Of a stretch of 64,000 nt of DNA, positions 9,697-62,420 are shown one piece after another. Origin of the DNA: a virus; the IMG/VR virus record IMGVR_UViG_3300045988_176129, positions 24,700 through 88,699 of that record. One strand, written 5' to 3'. Each line of letters begins with the position of its first letter. Position 1 is the first letter of the stretch. Made by a program: the position numbers and the translations under genes. The notes under the pieces are model-generated. The model saw only the letters and a list, made by a program, of their open reading frames with translations, made no database searches and was not told the DNA's origin.

Positions 9697-10086
9697 AAAG
9701 TTTGACTTTTGAAAAAATTTTTGTTATAATAATTATACAAAGTTAAGGAACACAAAGTTCTCTTAACAGGAAAACCAGACCCCGCGGGGAATAAACGGAG
9801 TGACCTGTGAGCGATCAGGGGATAATGACCAGAACATTAAAGATATTACTACTCATGCTTCACTTTTAAAAGAAGGTATACCGGGTGCGGTTTATGGAGA
9901 ACTATTAAAGTTGCAACTTATCCAAAAGAAAAAATCTCCTTTTGGCGAAATCCAAAAGAAAAACTAGCTAGGTTAAATGATAGTATAGAAAACCTAGCAA
10001 TTGTCAAGATATAAATAAATGCATTGACATTTTAAAAAAATTATAGTATAATAAATATATAAAAGAGAGAAAAGGAGAAATGCGCT

Positions 10087-10479
10087 ATGGAGAACACAGC
10101 AAAGATGACACAGATTGATATTTATGAGAAGATTAAGGAGATTGTTTCAGCATCAGAGGATGCAGATGTTGCTACAATTGTAGAGTTCTGTGATAAGAAG
10201 ATTGCTCAGGCAATTGATAAGAGAGAGAAGGCACAGGCTAAGGCTGCTGAGAAGAAGGCAGAGAGTGATGAAATGACAGATGCAATTGCTGAGATTCTTA
10301 CTGAGGATGGTAAGACAGCAGAGGATATTGCTCAGGCTCTTTCAGCGAGATTTGAGGATATTACAAAGGCTAAGGTTGTTTCAAGAATGGGCAAGCTTGT
10401 AGCAGCTGGTAGAGCTTCTAAGGTTAAGGAAGGCAAGAACCCTATGGTTTACATGCTTCCAACAGCAGTAGCTGAGTAA
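10087..10479 (+). CDS. acidic Ala/Glu-rich small protein, paralog family with 60376 and 62421
   Basis: RBS aaaggagaaatg upstream. Confidence 0.55.
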   Translation: MENTAKMTQIDIYEKIKEIVSASEDADVATIVEFCDKKIAQAIDKREKAQAKAAEKKAESDEMTDAIAEILTEDGKTAEDIAQALSARFEDITKAKVVSRMGKLVAAGRASKVKEGKNPMVYMLPTAVAE

Positions 10480-10548
10480 TTATATATTTAGATTATAAAG
10501 TGTTAGGGTAGGAAGGTAACTTTCTACCCTATTTTAATAGGAGGAATT

Positions 10549-11415
10549 ATGTCTTATTTTAATTTAGAATATACAGAAAAATTTAAGTATAAAAATGCGA
10601 ATAATGTTAGTTACTGGATTCTTTATAATGGACATGATGAAGGAGTTAAAGATTTTCTTATAAGAAATAAAGAAAAGCATATAACTATTTGTTTTGCTGA
10701 TAAAATTTTAGAAAATATGGAACTTTATTCAAGCGGAGATAAGTTAATTGATTTTATCATTAATGGAAAAGAAAAATTCTATATAAATTTAGTAAAAGAA
10801 GGAATAAATAATTTTGTTTTACAAATTCCTTATCATGTAGAGGGGGCCAGAGAACTGGCAATCACGCTTAAAGAGAATGGAGTGCCTTTTTATTTTATGG
10901 ATGCGGTTACATCATGGGAACAGTTAAATAGTTTTATTGAAGATGGAGTATCAGATGTTCTCGTGTCTAGCTCTTTTGCTTTTAATATTAGAGACATCGC
11001 AGAAAAATGTCACAAAGAGGGTGTTCAAGTTAGAGTGATTCCGAACATCTATCAATCCGCAGAATATAATGATGGATCAATGGGCTTCTTCATAAGACCA
11101 GAGGCTATTGGTTTATATTCAAAATATATAGATATATTTGAATTAAGATGCTCAAAAGATGTTTGTAACACAATATATGAGATTTTTGCTATTGATAAAG
11201 AATGGTATGGAGACATAAGTGAGATTATAGCGGGTGCCCCAAAAGGAATAACCAATAGGAATATAGTAGAATTATTTGATATAGCAAGAACCAATTGTGG
11301 CAAAAAGTGCGTAAAACCTATGAATGGTTGTAATATATGTGATACTGCTATAAGATTAAGTAAAACTTTTACCGATTATAATATTGAATATAAAAACAAT
11401 AAATTGAAAAAGTAA
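10549..11415 (+). CDS. hypothetical protein with C-terminal Cys cluster
   Basis: RBS aggagg; contains CGKKC...NGCNIC. Confidence 0.55.
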   Translation: MSYFNLEYTEKFKYKNANNVSYWILYNGHDEGVKDFLIRNKEKHITICFADKILENMELYSSGDKLIDFIINGKEKFYINLVKEGINNFVLQIPYHVEGARELAITLKENGVPFYFMDAVTSWEQLNSFIEDGVSDVLVSSSFAFNIRDIAEKCHKEGVQVRVIPNIYQSAEYNDGSMGFFIRPEAIGLYSKYIDIFELRCSKDVCNTIYEIFAIDKEWYGDISEIIAGAPKGITNRNIVELFDIARTNCGKKCVKPMNGCNICDTAIRLSKTFTDYNIEYKNNKLKK

Positions 11416-11464
11416 TAAAAATATATTATAATATATATAGAAGATAAAGAAAGGAAGGGTTCTT

Positions 11465-11743
11465 ATGGCGGCAAGAGGAACAGAAGTAAAAGAAAAATTA
11501 ACTCAGGTATTAACAAAATTATTTCCAGAAAGCTTTATGGATGGCAAGACTCTTAGAATCCCAATGAAAGAGAATGGAGAAATAGTTGAAATAAAGGTGA
11601 CACTGACAGCGGCTAAGGATGTTTTAGGTGGTGCAAATACAGAAGCTTTTACATCAAATAGCTTTATTCCAGTATGTGATATGCCAACAGAGGAAGAAAT
11701 AGAAGAAGTTAAAAAGTATTTAAGTTCAATGGGGATGATATAA
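11465..11743 (+). CDS. hypothetical protein
   Basis: Promoter and RBS upstream. Confidence 0.5.
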   Translation: MAARGTEVKEKLTQVLTKLFPESFMDGKTLRIPMKENGEIVEIKVTLTAAKDVLGGANTEAFTSNSFIPVCDMPTEEEIEEVKKYLSSMGMI

Positions 11744-12030
11744 TGATAAAATATGATGAATGGCAGGATGGCGCAGGTATGTGGCATTGTGGAAATACAT
11801 CTGATCTTACACATGGAAGTAATGATTGGTGGCTTCCTGCTAGATATTTAGGCATTGCCCCATATGAATTTGCTAAACTTTTGGTTGAAAAATTTCATGT
11901 AGATAGAATAAAATACCTTATAAATGGCAATAATATTGGAGTATTAACATATTCTTGGAAAAAGCAATCGGATATGCGAGTTTTTAAAAATTGGTTAAAT
12001 AAAGAGATAAGGACTAGGAAAATATCATAA
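11743..12030 (+). CDS. hypothetical protein
   Basis: Start/stop overlap with the upstream gene. Confidence 0.5.
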   Translation: MIKYDEWQDGAGMWHCGNTSDLTHGSNDWWLPARYLGIAPYEFAKLLVEKFHVDRIKYLINGNNIGVLTYSWKKQSDMRVFKNWLNKEIRTRKIS

Positions 12031-60648: not shown

Positions 60649-60679
60649 TTAGATATTATTTACACAGAATAAAAATATG

Positions 60680-60712
60680 GGTTAGTTATTTTAATTAACC
60701 CATATTTTTCTA
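60680..60712 (+). terminator. Rho-independent terminator
   Basis: gggttagtt-atttta-attaaccc followed by atattttt. Confidence 0.6.
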
Positions 60713-60722
60713 TATAGAAGAC

Positions 60723-61697
60723 ATGCAATATATAATAGGAATAATTATAATATTAATTTTGTTCTTTTTTATTGGAAAACACTTTATAAAGATTCATACA
60801 ATAAATAAAGAAATAGAAAATGCTAACATTGAATTACAAAACAAAAATGATTTTTTAAAAAAAGAAACAGAAAAAAAGCATTTTGAACTTGAAAAGTTAG
60901 ATGAAAAAGAGCAGCACTACAGAGAGAAGATAAGAAATGTAGAAGAACAATATCAATCATGTGTAAAACATTATACTCAACGATGCAATGACCAAGAAGA
61001 CTTGAGTAGAGAAAGTTTTTCTCACTATTTTGATAATCTTCAAAATTCTTATAAAGAAGCAGATAAAAACTTTGATAAAAAAATTGAAGTTTTAAATAAT
61101 AAATACAAAGAGTTTGAGAAAGAAATAGATTTAAAAATCCAAGAGTCTCAAGCAGATTTAAGGAAGATTCAAGCAACACGTGCCGCAGCAATACAAGCAC
61201 AATTAAAAGAAAAAGAAATAAAAGACAATAAAAATTTTTATTGTTTAACTATTGATGAGACTGATAAAGCGGATATATATAGGTTAACAGAGATTAAAAA
61301 GACTCTTAATAAGCCAAGAGTATTATCAATGTTAATATGGAGTACATGGTTTCAAAAACCATTGAAAACTTTAAGCAATAATGTATTAGGAACTACTAAT
61401 GATGTAAGTGGTATTTATAAAATTACTAATATGGTTACAGAAGAGTGTTATATTGGTCAAAGTTGCGCTATAGCTCGAAGATGGTCAGAGCATGCCAAGT
61501 GTGGATTGGGAATAGATACCCCTGCAAATAATAAACTTTATAAAGCAATGCAAGAATATGGTTTATGGAATTTCTCTTGGGAACTTTTGGAGAAGTGTCC
61601 TGCGGAGCAATTAAATGAAAAGGAAAAATTTTATATTGAACTTTATCAGGCTTATGATTATGGTTATAATAGTAATACAGGAGTTAGTAAGAAATGA
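60723..61697 (+). CDS. membrane-anchored coiled-coil protein with C-terminal GIY-YIG nuclease domain
   Basis: N-terminal transmembrane segment IIGIIIILILFFFIG, about 170 aa of coiled coil, then GIYKITNMVTEECYIGQS...RRWSEH...YGYN. Confidence 0.7.
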   Translation: MQYIIGIIIILILFFFIGKHFIKIHTINKEIENANIELQNKNDFLKKETEKKHFELEKLDEKEQHYREKIRNVEEQYQSCVKHYTQRCNDQEDLSRESFSHYFDNLQNSYKEADKNFDKKIEVLNNKYKEFEKEIDLKIQESQADLRKIQATRAAAIQAQLKEKEIKDNKNFYCLTIDETDKADIYRLTEIKKTLNKPRVLSMLIWSTWFQKPLKTLSNNVLGTTNDVSGIYKITNMVTEECYIGQSCAIARRWSEHAKCGLGIDTPANNKLYKAMQEYGLWNFSWELLEKCPAEQLNEKEKFYIELYQAYDYGYNSNTGVSKK

Positions 61698-62383
61698 AGA
61701 AAGTTACAATAATGCCAGATACGCCTAAGAATCCTCTTGAACAAATGGGGTTTTATGCTGGGACATGTTGGGGAGCCGATACCTCAGATAAAGAAAAAAA
61801 TATTCGTAGGGGAAAGGGATGTATAGATAGTGGGCATGGAAGAATTTTAGAGTTGTCTCAAGTTTATATGGTTGTAGAAGGATATTCTGCAAGATGTATT
61901 AGAGAATTTTATACTCATATTGGTGGTAGTCCTACAAGACTTCAAGAGTCAACAAGATATATTCAATATGGAGATTTTAATTATATAACCCCTTCATCAA
62001 TAGCAAAGTCAGAAAAGGCTAATGATTTATATAGGGAGGTTATGAATACTATTTCTTCTACATATGTAAAATTAGAAGAATTAGGAATACCAAAAGAAGA
62101 TATAGCTAATATTCTTCCCCTTGGAATGGAATCAAAAATAACTGATAGAACAAATGCACGACAGATTATAGATATGTCACATCAGAGGGATTGTTCTCGC
62201 GCATATTGGGAAATGCGAGACTTGATGCATCAAATAGAGGTAGAGTTATCTAATTATTCAGAAGAGTGGGCTTATATTATAAAAAGTCAATGTATGCCAA
62301 AGTGTTGTTTACTTGGCTATTGTAATGAAGGAAAAAAATCTTGTGGTCGTTATCCTTTAAAGGAAAGTATTGACAATAAATAA
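61694..62383 (+). CDS. thyX: ThyX-family (flavin-dependent thymidylate synthase-like) protein with divergent RHR motif
   Basis: SGHGRILELSQVYMVVEGYSARCIREF...QESTRY and ARQIIDMSHQRD match the ThyX core, but the canonical RHR is THI. Confidence 0.65.
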   Translation: MKKVTIMPDTPKNPLEQMGFYAGTCWGADTSDKEKNIRRGKGCIDSGHGRILELSQVYMVVEGYSARCIREFYTHIGGSPTRLQESTRYIQYGDFNYITPSSIAKSEKANDLYREVMNTISSTYVKLEELGIPKEDIANILPLGMESKITDRTNARQIIDMSHQRDCSRAYWEMRDLMHQIEVELSNYSEEWAYIIKSQCMPKCCLLGYCNEGKKSCGRYPLKESIDNK

Positions 62384-62420
62384 ATTTTATGATATAATTA
62401 TTATATAATAAAGAAAGGAT

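What the first reader, a model, noticed from the sequence alone, without database searches (positions are those of the whole stretch)
9702..62410. A ~45-bp promoter-leader module repeated more than 30 times
Nearly every operon and many tRNA clusters are preceded by TTGAC(A/T)-N17-TG(T/A)TATAAT, followed by a conserved ATATATAGAAAG(A/T)TAAAGAAAGG leader that ends in the RBS. Copies begin near 9702, 12432, 13230, 13510, 13575, 13735, 15136, 15310, 15505, 16975, 18250, 18640, 18855, 25110, 25390, 30300, 35810, 37330, 38390, 41305, 45855, 48335, 51895, 52950, 54905, 57345, 59875, 60095 and 62385. This implies host sigma70 RNAP use from highly uniform, presumably very strong, promoters. The conserved downstream leader may be a recognition site for a phage regulator or a translational enhancer.
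Basis: seen in the sequence. Interest (0 to 1): 0.55.

Follow-up and report, generated by a model that had tools for sequence, protein, structure and literature searches.

The report
Repeated phage early promoter-leader module
An uncultivated large gut or rumen phage carries about 38 near-identical copies of a strong host-type promoter fused to a short purine-rich leader, the same design known from phage T5, T4 and staphylococcal Kayvirus early promoters, so it is real but ordinary in kind.

Summary
The repeat is real and far beyond chance. A position-weight scan finds 38 copies: 34 on the + strand and 4 on the - strand. They score 17-60 bits, against a maximum of 6.4 bits in shuffles.

The module is a housekeeping-sigma promoter with several parts:
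- a -35 box, an A5T3 spacer, a Gram-positive TRTG '-16' element and a perfect -10 box;
- a promoter-locked block, AwwTATAnAA at +1..+10, which is equally conserved before ORFs, tRNAs and a ROOL RNA;
- a purine-rich initial transcribed stretch;
- in 21 copies, the Shine-Dalgarno AAGAAAGG followed by a start codon 21-40 nt after the -10 box.

Relatives (80 IMG/VR loci, topoisomerase II 51-74% identical, GC 28-40%) carry the same module, including the downstream block. Annotated T5 early promoters have the same layout.

Best reading: these are escape-optimised early promoters with built-in ribosome-binding sites. This is a new member of a known kind, and interest is low to moderate.

The parts
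1635..1685 (-). module copy (-10 ends at 1657); ORF 1375-1593 starts 63 nt downstream
   Evidence: PWM 46.2 bits; TTGATA-17-TATAAT with TG
4205..4255 (-). module copy, full-leader type; drives ORF 3771-4193; a terminator hairpin abuts the -35 box
   Evidence: PWM 60.5 bits; full leader with 2 mismatches; hairpin -18.3 kcal/mol
6029..6079 (-). module copy; drives ORF 5268-6017
   Evidence: PWM 44.7 bits; 12 of 12 hexamer match
7334..7384 (-). module copy, full-leader type; drives a small ORF ending at 7159; a weaker tandem copy has its -10 ending at 7457
   Evidence: PWM 43.8 bits
7502..7552 (+). module copy, divergent from the - strand copies; drives ORF 7558-7815
   Evidence: PWM 42.8 bits; 12 of 12 with TG
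9395..9445 (+). module copy, full-leader type; ORF starts at 9448
   Evidence: PWM 45.2 bits
9702..9752 (+). module copy; no convincing ORF for ~290 nt, and the leader can form a hairpin
   Evidence: PWM 42.2 bits; sequence
10024..10074 (+). module copy; drives ORF 10087-10479
   Evidence: PWM 57.2 bits
11404..11454 (+). module copy, full-leader type; drives ORF 11465-11743
   Evidence: PWM 51.7 bits; 0 mismatches to the full-leader pattern
12432..12482 (+). module copy with a 96-nt leader before ORF 12557-13198
   Evidence: PWM 33.4 bits
13234..13284 (+). module copy, full-leader type; a terminator hairpin abuts the -35 box; drives ORF 13293-13505
   Evidence: PWM 45.8 bits; terminator 13202-13229
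13506..13556 (+). orphan copy: complete promoter plus 22-nt leader with a Shine-Dalgarno sequence but no start codon or ORF; followed by the next copy
   Evidence: PWM 52.3 bits; sequence
13583..13633 (+). module copy with a deviant downstream block; tRNA-Pro starts 27 nt after the -10 box
   Evidence: PWM 25.8 bits; tRNA
13737..13787 (+). module copy before a tRNA-like gene that carries an insertion (13844-13981)
   Evidence: PWM 54.5 bits; Rfam tRNA 54 bits
15136..15186 (+). module copy with a deviant downstream block; ~150 nt of unknown transcript follow
   Evidence: PWM 34.3 bits
15319..15369 (+). module copy; ~150 nt of unknown transcript follow
   Evidence: PWM 49.7 bits
15505..15555 (+). 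module copy 110 nt upstream of the ROOL RNA (15643-16280)
   Evidence: PWM 36.0 bits; ROOL 255.9 bits
16974..17024 (+). module copy, full-leader type; a small ORF from 17037, then tRNA-Met
   Evidence: PWM 56.9 bits
18247..18297 (+). module copy directly after tRNA-Asn; drives ORF 18316-18633
   Evidence: PWM 46.0 bits
18633..18683 (+). module copy with ATGACA as its -35 box; upstream of tRNA-Lys
   Evidence: PWM 17.4 bits; sequence
18858..18908 (+). module copy directly after tRNA-Lys; a polypurine tract is retained; tRNA-Asp starts 43 nt after the -10 box
   Evidence: PWM 46.5 bits
25127..25177 (+). module copy with a shortened downstream block; drives ORF 25179-25397
   Evidence: PWM 30.7 bits
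25394..25444 (+). module copy, full-leader type, with a 64-nt distance to ORF 25487-25822
   Evidence: PWM 52.9 bits
27209..27259 (+). consensus promoter that lacks the ATATATA block; a terminator abuts the -35 box; drives YadA-like and LRR genes 27259-30310
   Evidence: PWM 24.0 bits, downstream score -0.8; Pfam
30306..30356 (+). module copy with a 16-bp spacer; drives ORF 30384-30608
   Evidence: PWM 32.5 bits
35819..35869 (+). module copy; drives ORF 35873-36811
   Evidence: PWM 30.9 bits
37332..37382 (+). module copy; drives ORF 37397-37714
   Evidence: PWM 48.4 bits
38395..38445 (+). module copy, full-leader type; drives ORF 38457-38789 and the 817-aa gene
   Evidence: PWM 58.4 bits; 0 mismatches
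41306..41356 (+). module copy, full-leader type; the terminator stem overlaps the -35 box
   Evidence: PWM 54.4 bits; terminator 41283-41308
45863..45913 (+). module copy; 92 nt to the RNA ligase gene 45984-47219
   Evidence: PWM 41.6 bits; PHROG
48331..48381 (+). module copy; a terminator abuts the -35 box; a module sits upstream of the orthologous gene in L001, L002 and L003
   Evidence: PWM 49.4 bits
51903..51953 (+). module copy after the endolysin terminator; drives ORF 51984-52376
   Evidence: PWM 43.0 bits
52946..52996 (+). module copy before the topoisomerase II large subunit
   Evidence: PWM 45.2 bits
54895..54945 (+). module copy between the two topoisomerase II genes
   Evidence: PWM 39.5 bits
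57346..57396 (+). module copy; a terminator abuts the -35 box; drives the N-terminal part of the NAD-dependent ligase
   Evidence: PWM 54.5 bits; terminator 57322-57345
59879..59929 (+). module copy; drives ORF 59929-60105
   Evidence: PWM 54.7 bits
60095..60145 (+). module copy with a ~106-nt leader
   Evidence: PWM 35.5 bits
62370..62420 (+). module copy; drives ORF 62421-62774; a module sits at the same position in L001, L002 and L025
   Evidence: PWM 40.5 bits

Best explanation
Each copy is an early or pre-replicative promoter of a large lytic phage, read by the host's housekeeping-sigma RNA polymerase and fused to a minimal 5' leader.

**Upstream half.** It stacks every recognition element: a -35 TTGAca, an exact 17-bp spacer with a phased A5T3 tract, the Gram-positive '-16' TRTG or extended -10, and a perfect TATAAT.

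**Downstream half, three layers.**
1. An alternating A/T discriminator (ATATAT) that is easy to melt.
2. An A start about 7 nt after the -10 box (inferred).
3. A purine-rich, C-poor initial transcribed sequence. In the T5 N25 paradigm such a sequence lets RNA polymerase escape from a promoter it binds very tightly.

**Ribosome-binding site.** In about half the copies the purine tract doubles as the Shine-Dalgarno sequence AAGAAAGG(R). This is complementary to the 3' end of Firmicute-type 16S rRNA. It starts about 9-10 nt from the predicted 5' end, and a start codon follows 8-11 nt later. The result is a 15-34 nt unstructured leader that a 30S subunit would cover almost to the 5' end.

**Shown:** the sequence architecture, the copy number, the orientation and the conservation across relatives.

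**Inferred:** use of host RNA polymerase, the start site, promoter strength, early timing, and the roles in escape and mRNA stability.
For: **Statistics and anatomy**
- 38 copies against none in shuffles.
- The per-position profile is TTGA, A-tract, T-n-T(G)-n-TATAAT, ATATATA-n-AA, AAGAAAGG.
- Every copy points at the downstream gene. 28 of 50 inter-feature gaps of 35 nt or more carry one.

**The downstream block splits in two**
- Information at +1..+10 is equal before ORFs (6.85 bits) and before non-coding or distant targets (7.00 bits).
- Information at +11..+24 is 7.3 versus 2.6 bits.
- 405 control TAWAAT hexamers show zero information downstream.

**Purine bias**
- The purine fraction at +7..+24 is 0.85 for ORF-proximal copies and 0.75 for the others, against a 0.56 background.
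- Only 20 C occur in 684 positions.

**Family-wide conservation**
- All 80 relative loci carry the module at 1-6 copies per 10 kb, nearly always on the coding strand.
- Sites chosen by the upstream half alone still show AtataTA.AA downstream, including in relatives with 39-40% GC.
- The identical 28-nt string recurs upstream of genes with no match in this window.

**Precedents**
- Kayvirus has 58 early promoters of the form TTGACW-17-TRTGN-TATANT, with the initiating nucleotide placed 6 bp after the -10 box (PMC7698491).
- T4 early promoters are described as 'uber' UP/-35/TGn/-10 promoters with additional consensus regions (PMC2988021).
- T5 early promoters share a conserved ATATT discriminator (PMC7472727).
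- Annotated T5 promoters read TATAAT-ATATAC-ATAAATTAGTTAAGAGAGG-N8-ATG. With this window's matrix, their downstream halves score 11-12 bits.
- The purine-rich native N25 initial transcribed sequence gives about 10-fold better productive synthesis than its pyrimidine-rich 'anti' version (PMC12464699).
Against: - There are no transcript data. The start site, strength and timing are all inferred.
- The host is unknown. Endolysin homologues point only loosely to Clostridia or Lachnospiraceae. I could not check whether the ATATATA block is simply what that host's own promoters look like.
- TG is present in only 22 of 38 copies.
- Five or six copies have a deviant or shifted downstream block (13611, 15164, 25155, 27237, 35847, 62398).
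- The escape rationale comes from E. coli RNA polymerase on T5 N25, not from a Gram-positive enzyme.
Confidence: 0.8

Rival explanations
1. The conserved discriminator and initial block (AwwTATAnAA plus the purine tract) is mainly a class tag. A phage-encoded RNAP-binding protein or repressor would read it to switch this promoter class on or off during infection. This has been suggested for the T5 early-promoter ATATT discriminator and gpT5.026.
For: - The block is locked to the -10 box and conserved independently of what is transcribed.
- It is conserved across relatives with different GC content.
- T5 early and late promoters differ mainly in the discriminator, and gpT5.026 lowers RNAP affinity for the -5/+2 non-template strand (PMC7472727).
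- The one consensus promoter in front of adhesin-like, possibly late genes (27237) lacks the block.
Against: - No homologue of gpT5.026 was found in the window (tblastn, E up to 10).
- The contrast between promoter classes rests on one or two promoters.
- The block needs no regulator to be explained, since easy melting and escape would account for it.
- The T5 proposal is itself untested.
Confidence: 0.2
2. The purine-rich leader acts mainly after transcription. A Shine-Dalgarno-like polypurine tract within about 10 nt of the 5' end would recruit a 30S subunit. This would both drive translation and shield the 5' end from a 5'-to-3' exonuclease of the RNase J type, as with the STAB-SD and SP82 polypurine stabilisers in Bacillus. 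This reading does not exclude the best explanation.
For: - The Shine-Dalgarno sequence AAGAAAGG sits at a fixed +15..+22 in 10 full-leader copies, with start codons 21-40 nt after the -10 box in 21 copies.
- The polypurine tract is retained in front of some tRNAs and in the orphan copy at 13534.
- A review states that a ribosome-binding site at or near the 5' end stabilises long downstream RNA in B. subtilis (PMC3997798).
Against: - The host, and therefore its RNase repertoire, is unknown.
- Conservation at +11..+24 largely disappears where no ORF is close (2.6 bits), as expected for a plain ribosome-binding site.
- There are no half-life data.
Confidence: 0.3
3. The copies are PeSL-like regulatory cassettes (terminator, promoter, Shine-Dalgarno sequence). 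Their shared ~50-75 bp would serve as recombination substrates that shuffle small genes within and between related phages.
For: - Seven copies have a terminator hairpin fused to the -35 box.
- Relatives gain and lose modules while gene order is kept.
- L002 and L025 have an extra 220-aa ORF flanked by two modules where the window has one.
- L001 has different ORFs between the modules that flank the ligase in the window.
- An orphan copy has no gene.
- The identical 28-nt string occurs in front of genes in diverged relatives that have no match in the window.
- PeSL precedent: PMC2839356.
Against: - Upstream hairpins are not enriched overall (median MFE -4.05 versus -3.95 in controls, p = 0.51).
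- Copies within the window are only 60-88% identical, with no near-identical pairs.
- Indels bounded by promoters are expected anyway if whole transcription units are the unit of gain and loss.
Confidence: 0.2
4. The motif is the promoter of a phage-encoded RNA polymerase or sigma factor rather than of the host housekeeping holoenzyme.
For: - Conservation runs over about 50 bp and continues past the -10 box, as at single-subunit RNAP promoters.
Against: - The conserved core is the canonical TTGACA-17-TATAAT with TRTG.
- None of the ~26 larger window ORFs scanned against PHROGs or Pfam matched an RNAP or sigma family. Only those larger ORFs were scanned.
- T5, T4 and Kayvirus use the host enzyme at equivalent sites.
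Confidence: 0.03

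Closest known systems
Bacteriophage T5 (Demerecviridae) early promoters, e.g. P_N25 and the ~75-bp promoter features annotated in NC_005859
   Same: - Host-sigma promoter with TATAAT and an AAAATTT-type spacer.
- Conserved AT-rich discriminator: ATATT or ATATAC in T5, ATATAT here.
- A start followed by a purine-rich initial transcribed sequence that ends in the Shine-Dalgarno sequence, with ATG about 30 nt after the -10 box.
- Terminators often abut the promoter.
- With this window's matrix, the downstream halves of T5 promoters score 11-12 bits. 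The purine-rich initial sequence aids escape.
- Similar genome context: a tRNA cluster and a phosphoesterase here and in T5 (T5.034). From my own knowledge, not checked here, T5 also has a two-part NAD-dependent ligase.
   Different: - The -35 box here is TTGA(c/t/a)w, not TTGCTT.
- A Gram-positive TRTG element is present.
- The Shine-Dalgarno sequence is AAGAAAGG rather than GAGAGG or GGAGG.
- The phage is not demonstrably a Demerecviridae member: no DNA similarity, topoisomerase II at most 36% identical to any cultured phage, and no gpT5.026 homologue.
Kayvirus (Twort-like, Herelleviridae) early promoters of Staphylococcus phage vB_SauM-515A1
   Same: - Dozens (58) of uniform sigma70-type promoters of the form TTGACW-17 bp-TRTGN-TATANT.
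- They are spread through a low-GC lytic phage genome of more than 100 kb.
- The initiating nucleotide is placed 6 bp after the -10 box (PMC7698491).
   Different: - No conserved discriminator, initial transcribed block or fixed-distance Shine-Dalgarno sequence appears in the passages of that paper I read.
- The phage lineage is unrelated.
T4 early promoters and PeSL cassettes of T4-type phages (RB49, phi1)
   Same: - T4 early promoters are 'uber' UP/-35/TGn/-10 promoters with extra consensus regions.
- PeSLs are composite cassettes of about 100 bp (terminator stem-loop, AT-rich region, sigma70-like promoter, Shine-Dalgarno sequence, ATG). They recur in front of small ORFans and mark indel boundaries.
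   Different: - The stem-loop is not an integral part here: 7 of 38 copies have one, with no overall enrichment.
- There is no strong UP-element signal upstream of the -35 box.
- Recombination between copies is not shown.
5' polypurine and STAB-SD mRNA stabilisers of Bacillus (SP82 early RNA, cryIIIA)
   Same: [quoted passage not shown] 1995 and Agaisse & Lereclus 1996).
   Different: - Here most tracts are the genuine ribosome-binding site of the first gene.
- A stabilising effect is not tested, and the host's RNases are unknown.

Membership tests
Housekeeping-sigma (sigma70/sigmaA) promoter with extended -10 / '-16' TRTG element | -35 hexamer close to TTGACA | tested here: met
   TTGA is present in 36 of 37 copies; position 5 is C in 17 and position 6 is A in 24. 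The 38th copy has ATGACA.
Housekeeping-sigma (sigma70/sigmaA) promoter with extended -10 / '-16' TRTG element | Spacer of 17 +/- 1 bp and a -10 hexamer TATAAT | tested here: met
   The spacer is 17 bp in all copies but one, which has 16 bp (30334). TATAAT positions are invariant in 36-37 of 37 copies.
Housekeeping-sigma (sigma70/sigmaA) promoter with extended -10 / '-16' TRTG element | TGn or TRTG immediately upstream of the -10 box | tested here: met
   The T residues at -10 and -8 (relative to the last base of the hexamer) are invariant. G at -7 occurs in 22 of 37 copies, and 22 of 38 carry TG.
Housekeeping-sigma (sigma70/sigmaA) promoter with extended -10 / '-16' TRTG element | Upstream of and co-oriented with transcription units | tested here: met
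   Every copy points towards the downstream ORF, tRNA or ncRNA. 28 of 50 gaps of 35 nt or more hold a copy.
Housekeeping-sigma (sigma70/sigmaA) promoter with extended -10 / '-16' TRTG element | Primary transcript 5' ends 6-9 nt downstream of the -10 box; transcription by the host holoenzyme | not testable with these tools
   This needs dRNA-seq, 5'-RACE or in vitro transcription.
T5-type early promoter class | Class-specific AT-rich discriminator (ATATT in T5) | tested here: met
   The consensus at +1..+7 is ATATATA, worth 6.9-7.0 bits over +1..+10.
T5-type early promoter class | Purine-rich initial transcribed sequence that runs into the Shine-Dalgarno sequence, with ATG about 30 nt after the -10 box | tested here: met
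   The purine fraction is 0.75-0.85 against a 0.56 background. The median distance from the -10 box to the start codon is 31 nt in 21 copies.
T5-type early promoter class | The phage belongs to the T5 lineage (Demerecviridae) | tested here: inconclusive
   Only short blastn hits of 65-75% identity were found, including to Vibrio and Fusobacterium phages. Topoisomerase II is at most 36% identical to any cultured phage. There is no T5.026 homologue.
T5-type early promoter class | Early temporal expression | not testable with these tools
   The only support is gene content: small ORFans, tRNAs and nucleotide-metabolism genes.
PeSL regulatory cassette (T4-type phages) | A stem-loop or terminator as a constituent of every cassette | tested here: not met
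   Strong hairpins abut the -35 box in about 7 of 38 copies. The distribution of upstream folding energies equals that of controls (p = 0.51).
PeSL regulatory cassette (T4-type phages) | Strong sigma70-like promoter plus Shine-Dalgarno sequence and ATG at the 3' end | tested here: met
   21 of 38 copies have a Shine-Dalgarno sequence and a start codon within 21-40 nt of the -10 box.
PeSL regulatory cassette (T4-type phages) | Copies mark ORFan insertion, deletion or replacement junctions, and recombination occurs between copies | tested here: inconclusive
   Examples exist in L001, L002 and L025 compared with the window. The relatives are too diverged to locate junctions, and mini-circles cannot be tested.
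5' polypurine / STAB-SD mRNA stabiliser | Shine-Dalgarno-like polypurine tract close to the RNA 5' end | tested here: inconclusive
   The tract is present if the start site is at about +7, which is inferred. The actual 5' end is unknown.
5' polypurine / STAB-SD mRNA stabiliser | Increases the half-life of the downstream RNA through 30S binding | not testable with these tools
   This needs decay assays in the host.

The most novel reading that the evidence does not exclude
The promoter-locked block (ATATATA-n-AA plus the purine tract) is conserved across a whole uncultivated family of ~130-170 kb gut and rumen phages, whatever their GC content and whatever lies downstream. It may be a dedicated recognition tag. 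A phage-encoded RNAP-binding factor would read it to sort promoters into temporal classes, a mechanism only hinted at for T5 gpT5.026. Alternatively, a RegA- or RegB-like factor acting on the shared leader RNA would read it, giving one-step control over about 40 early transcription units.
Probability: 0.2. Interest if true: 0.55.

Novelty: new member of a known kind. Interest (0 to 1): 0.3.

Why it matters
- It gives a ready-made transcription map for a phage lineage with no cultured representative: about 38 early promoters, their terminators, and which tRNAs and which ornate ROOL RNA have their own promoter.
- It shows that the T5-style design (consensus promoter, AT-rich discriminator, purine-rich initial transcribed sequence with an embedded Shine-Dalgarno sequence) recurs in phages that probably infect Gram-positive anaerobes. 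That argues for selection on the initially transcribed region, not only on the -35 and -10 boxes.
- In practice the module is a compact candidate part of about 75 bp, combining a strong promoter and a ribosome-binding site, for low-GC Firmicutes.
- The position-weight matrix is a cheap marker for finding early regions in related metagenomic contigs.
- It does not reveal a new kind of mechanism.

Tried and rejected
Both the N17 spacing and the 23-nt leader give 0 matches. The patterns were corrected rather than the finding rejected.
2. **Two promoter sub-classes.** In the window, copies without TG have a better downstream block (p = 0.003) and fewer have TTGAC. This was not reproduced in 335 independent sites from relatives (p = 0.06, opposite direction), so it was dropped as a general rule.
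3. **An obligatory upstream terminator, as in PeSLs.** There is no overall enrichment.
4. **Recent duplication or mobility.** Copies are only 60-88% identical.
5. **A structured RNA in the leader or in module-driven non-coding stretches.** Rfam at gathering threshold and at E up to 0.1 found only tRNAs and ROOL.
6. **A host-promoter control.** The 80 bacterial loci fetched through the endolysin have 47% GC and gave a single weak hit, so they say nothing about host promoters.
7. **A gpT5.026 homologue in the window.** None was found.
8. **Mapping copies along whole relative genomes by a pattern scan of viral contigs.** It shows only that the architecture is widespread.
9. **A cultured relative.** None was found by DNA or by the topoisomerase II protein.

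Full report

Yes. The window has about 30% GC. Genes run leftward up to about 7.35 kb and rightward after that, apart from a leftward block at 30.9-35.8 kb.

The sequence at 9702 shows why: it reads TTGACT-N14-TGT-TATAAT, a 17-bp spacer between the hexamers.

- With the corrected spacing and up to 2 mismatches there are 43 matches, against 2.75 expected and a maximum of 7 in shuffles.
- TTGA-N19-TATAAT-AWWTATA with up to 1 mismatch gives 29 matches against 0.11 expected.
- A position-weight matrix spanning -40..+30 was built from regex seeds and iterated. It converges on 37 true sites scoring 24-60 bits. Thirty dinucleotide shuffles never exceeded 6.4 bits.
- One apparent + strand hit at 4239 is the palindromic shadow of the - strand copy at 4227.
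- A 38th copy, with its -10 ending at 18661, has ATGACA as its -35 box and scores 17.4 bits.
- The repeat finder recovers the same families independently.

It missed nine copies, four of them on the - strand left of its stated range.

**2. Anatomy**

Positions are counted from the last base of the -10 hexamer.

- The -35 box is TTGA(c/t/a)(a/t).
- The spacer is T-rich and then carries an A-tract and T-tract (AAAAATTT).
- T at -10 and T at -8 are invariant, and G at -7 occurs in 22 of 37 copies. This is the Gram-positive TRTG '-16' or extended -10 element.
- TATAAT is essentially invariant.
- Downstream comes A-T-A-T-A-T-A at +1..+7, an unconstrained +8, A-A at +9 and +10, and then a purine run ending in AAGAAAGG at about +15..+22.
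- Upstream of the -35 box there is almost no information.

To avoid circularity, I selected sites by the two core hexamers alone (54 hits, about 19 expected by chance). The genuine copies all carry the AT-alternating block and the chance hits do not. 405 control TAWAAT hexamers outside the modules show zero downstream information.

**3. The 'leader' is two things**

I split the copies into two groups: 21 with a Shine-Dalgarno sequence and a start codon 21-40 nt after the -10 box, and 17 followed by tRNAs, the ROOL RNA, unknown transcripts or long leaders.

| Positions | ORF-proximal copies | Other copies |
|---|---|---|
| +1..+10 | 6.85 bits | 7.00 bits |
| +11..+24 | 7.3 bits | 2.6 bits |

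- AwwTATAnAA therefore belongs to the promoter: it is the discriminator, the start site and the first transcribed bases.
- AAGAAAGG is the ribosome-binding site of the first gene. From established knowledge of Firmicute 16S rRNA, whose 3' end is ...CCUCCUUUCU-3', AGAAAGG pairs with the terminal seven nucleotides.
- A purine bias persists at +7..+24 even without a nearby ORF: 0.75 against a 0.56 background (p about 1e-6). C is nearly excluded, with 20 in 684 positions.
- The full '-10 plus 22-nt leader' string occurs in 10 copies against 0 expected. One of these (13506-13556) is an orphan with no start codon, lying in tandem with the tRNA-Pro promoter.
- The median distance from the -10 box to the start codon is 31 nt. 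If transcription starts at about +7, these leaders are 15-34 nt long.

**4. Surroundings**

- Seven copies have a GC-rich terminator hairpin whose T-run or 3' stem merges into the -35 box: 4227(-), 13262, 27237, 41334, 48359, 57374 and, more loosely, 51931.
- Two other copies start directly after a tRNA.
- Hairpins are not a general component. Upstream folding energies equal those of controls.
- 28 of 50 inter-feature gaps of 35 nt or more on the + strand carry a module. Twelve of the 22 without one are inter-tRNA spacers.
- The genes served are typical early or pre-replicative functions: many small ORFans, 21-23 tRNAs, topoisomerase II subunits, a two-part NAD-dependent ligase, RNA ligase, tRNA-His guanylyltransferase, a phosphoesterase and the endolysin operon.
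- The consensus promoter in front of the YadA-like and LRR genes (27237) lacks the ATATATA block.
- The leftward block 30868-35756 has no module. Its upstream region has only a poor -35 box with a 19-bp spacer.

**5. Relatives**

- No cultured phage is close. The only DNA hits are short, at 65-75% identity, including to Fusobacterium phages (Fnu1, FNU2, FNU3), Vibrio phages and C. difficile phiCD211. Topoisomerase II is at most 36% identical to any phage in INPHARED.
- IMG/VR holds many relatives: 80 loci with topoisomerase II 51-74% identical, several on contigs of 130-180 kb, with GC from 28 to 40%. From my own knowledge of these sample accessions, not from a tool result, they look like gut, rumen and oral metagenomes.
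- Every locus carries the module at 1-6 copies per 10 kb, almost always on the coding strand.
- Sites picked with the upstream half of the matrix alone give the family consensus TTGA.tttTtaaAAAAaTTaTG.TATAAT | AtataTA.AA. This holds in the 39-40% GC clades too.
- Some positions are conserved. For example, a module lies upstream of the orthologue of ORF 48393 in L001, L002 and L003.
- Other positions are gained or lost while gene order is kept. Extra or replaced ORFs in relatives are flanked by modules.
- The identical string TATAATAT(A/T)TATAGAAAGTTAAGAAAGG sits upstream of genes with no match in the window in the 39% GC clade. This points to selection on the sequence itself, or to cassette exchange.
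- Endolysin homologues (44-76% identity) lie mostly in Lachnospiraceae, Ruminococcus and Oscillospiraceae genomes. This suggests, but does not prove, a Clostridia host.

**6. How it most likely works**

Shown:
- A canonical housekeeping-sigma promoter that stacks all known recognition elements.
- A promoter-locked AT-alternating discriminator and start region.
- A purine-rich initial transcribed region.
- An embedded Shine-Dalgarno sequence in about half the copies.

Inferred:
- Host sigmaA RNA polymerase binds these sites very tightly and out-competes host promoters early in infection.
- The ATATAT discriminator lowers the cost of melting.
- Transcription starts with A about 7 nt after the -10 box, as mapped for Kayvirus early promoters.
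- The A/G-rich, C-poor initial sequence favours forward translocation and escape. This is the limiting step for near-consensus promoters. Swapping the purine-rich native initial sequence of T5 N25 for its pyrimidine-rich 'anti' version lowers productive synthesis about 10-fold (PMC12464699).
- The short unstructured polypurine leader then loads ribosomes efficiently. In an RNase J-type host it could also protect the 5' end (PMC3997798).

**7. Comparison with what is known**

- **T5 early promoters (closest).** Klimuk et al. state that all T5 early promoters share an ATATT discriminator and differ from late promoters mainly there (PMC7472727). Annotated promoters in NC_005859 read, for example, TTGACT-N17-TATAAT-ATATAC-ATAAATTAGTTAAGAGAGG-N8-ATG, and they often overlap terminators. 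With this window's matrix, their downstream halves score 11-12 bits, against a window median of about 15.6.
- **Kayvirus.** It has 58 early promoters of the same TTGACW-17-TRTGN-TATANT form.
- **T4.** Its early promoters are described as 'uber' promoters with extra consensus regions.
- **PeSL cassettes.** These cassettes of RB49 and phi1 combine a terminator, a promoter and a Shine-Dalgarno sequence, and they mark ORFan shuffling.

Membership as a sigma70/sigmaA promoter is met on every sequence criterion. T5-type architecture is met, but descent from the T5 lineage is not shown. PeSL membership fails on the obligatory stem-loop.

**8. Leads that did not hold**

- A TG versus non-TG sub-class pattern seen in the window was not replicated in relatives.
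- Rfam found no structured RNA in the leaders.
- The bacterial control loci were uninformative.
- No gpT5.026 homologue was found.

**9. Verdict**

- The sigma70-type reading is supported.
- The 'leader' resolves into a promoter-locked discriminator and initial transcribed block plus an ordinary Shine-Dalgarno sequence.
- This is a new member of a well-known kind, phage early promoter-leader modules of the T5 type, in an uncultivated phage family.
- The residual novelty is that the downstream block might be a class tag read by a phage factor. I put that at about 0.2.

Noticed in passing
window 15643-16280 (+): A full-length ROOL RNA (Rfam RF03087, 255.9 bits against a gathering score of 99.1) lies inside the tRNA cluster. 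A module copy has its -10 ending at 15533, 110 nt upstream, so this ornate RNA appears to have its own strong phage promoter.
   Followed up: partly
window 13844-13981 (+): Rfam matches the tRNA model end to end (54 bits) over 138 nt, so this is a tRNA-like gene with an insertion of about 65 nt. ARAGORN did not call it. It is driven by the module whose -10 ends at 13765.
   Followed up: no
window 13982-14548, 16374-16561, 17322-17486, 17572-17768, 17941-18169, 19190-19451, 19652-19916 (+): Large spacers of 165-567 nt between tRNAs look GC-richer than the rest of the window. They have no module, no ORF and no Rfam hit at E up to 0.1. They may be unknown structured RNAs or processed spacers.
   Followed up: partly
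window 9730-10020 (+), 15164-15310 (+) and 15347-15500 (+): Module copies here are followed by 150-290 nt with no convincing ORF and no Rfam match. The 9730 transcript begins with a hairpin (AAGTTAAGGAAC...GTTCTCTTAAC). These are candidate small RNAs.
   Followed up: partly
window 38802-41255 (+): An 817-aa protein has a major-vault-protein 'shoulder' domain (PF11978, E = 4e-16) and a weak SPFH/Band 7 match. This is an unusual protein for a phage early region.
   Followed up: no
window 57393-59882 (+): The NAD-dependent DNA ligase is in two pieces (57393-58502 and 59064-59882), separated by a 193-aa ORF (58505-59086). Relatives L002, L003 and L025 encode one intact ligase of 647-655 aa. L003 carries a homologue of the inserted ORF elsewhere, so the insert looks mobile.
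   Followed up: partly
window 60723-61697 (+): A 324-aa ORF has a C-terminal GIY-YIG homing-endonuclease domain (PHROG 7168 and 5123). It is conserved in L001, L002, L003 and L025.
   Followed up: no
window 27752-28036 (+): In-frame tandem repeats with a period of 39-42 nt (YSHAEG-like) lie inside a 419-aa protein with YadA-head repeats. An LRR (BspA-type) protein follows. Their promoter (27237) is consensus but lacks the ATATATA block.
   Followed up: partly
window 43106-43254 (+): An intergenic region without a module contains two copies of the palindrome-like ATACTATATATAGTA, about 30 nt apart. It looks like an operator.
   Followed up: no
window 30834-30867 and 30868-35756 (-): A bidirectional terminator separates the rightward genes from a leftward five-gene block. 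One protein in that block (490 aa) has a Listeria-Bacteroides repeat. The block has no module and may belong to a different (late?) promoter class.
   Followed up: partly
window 50763-51836 (+); loci L081-L160: The endolysin (Amidase_2 plus two PG_binding_1 domains) has its closest homologues (44-76% identity) mostly in Lachnospiraceae, Ruminococcus and Oscillospiraceae genomes. This hints at a Clostridia host.
   Followed up: partly
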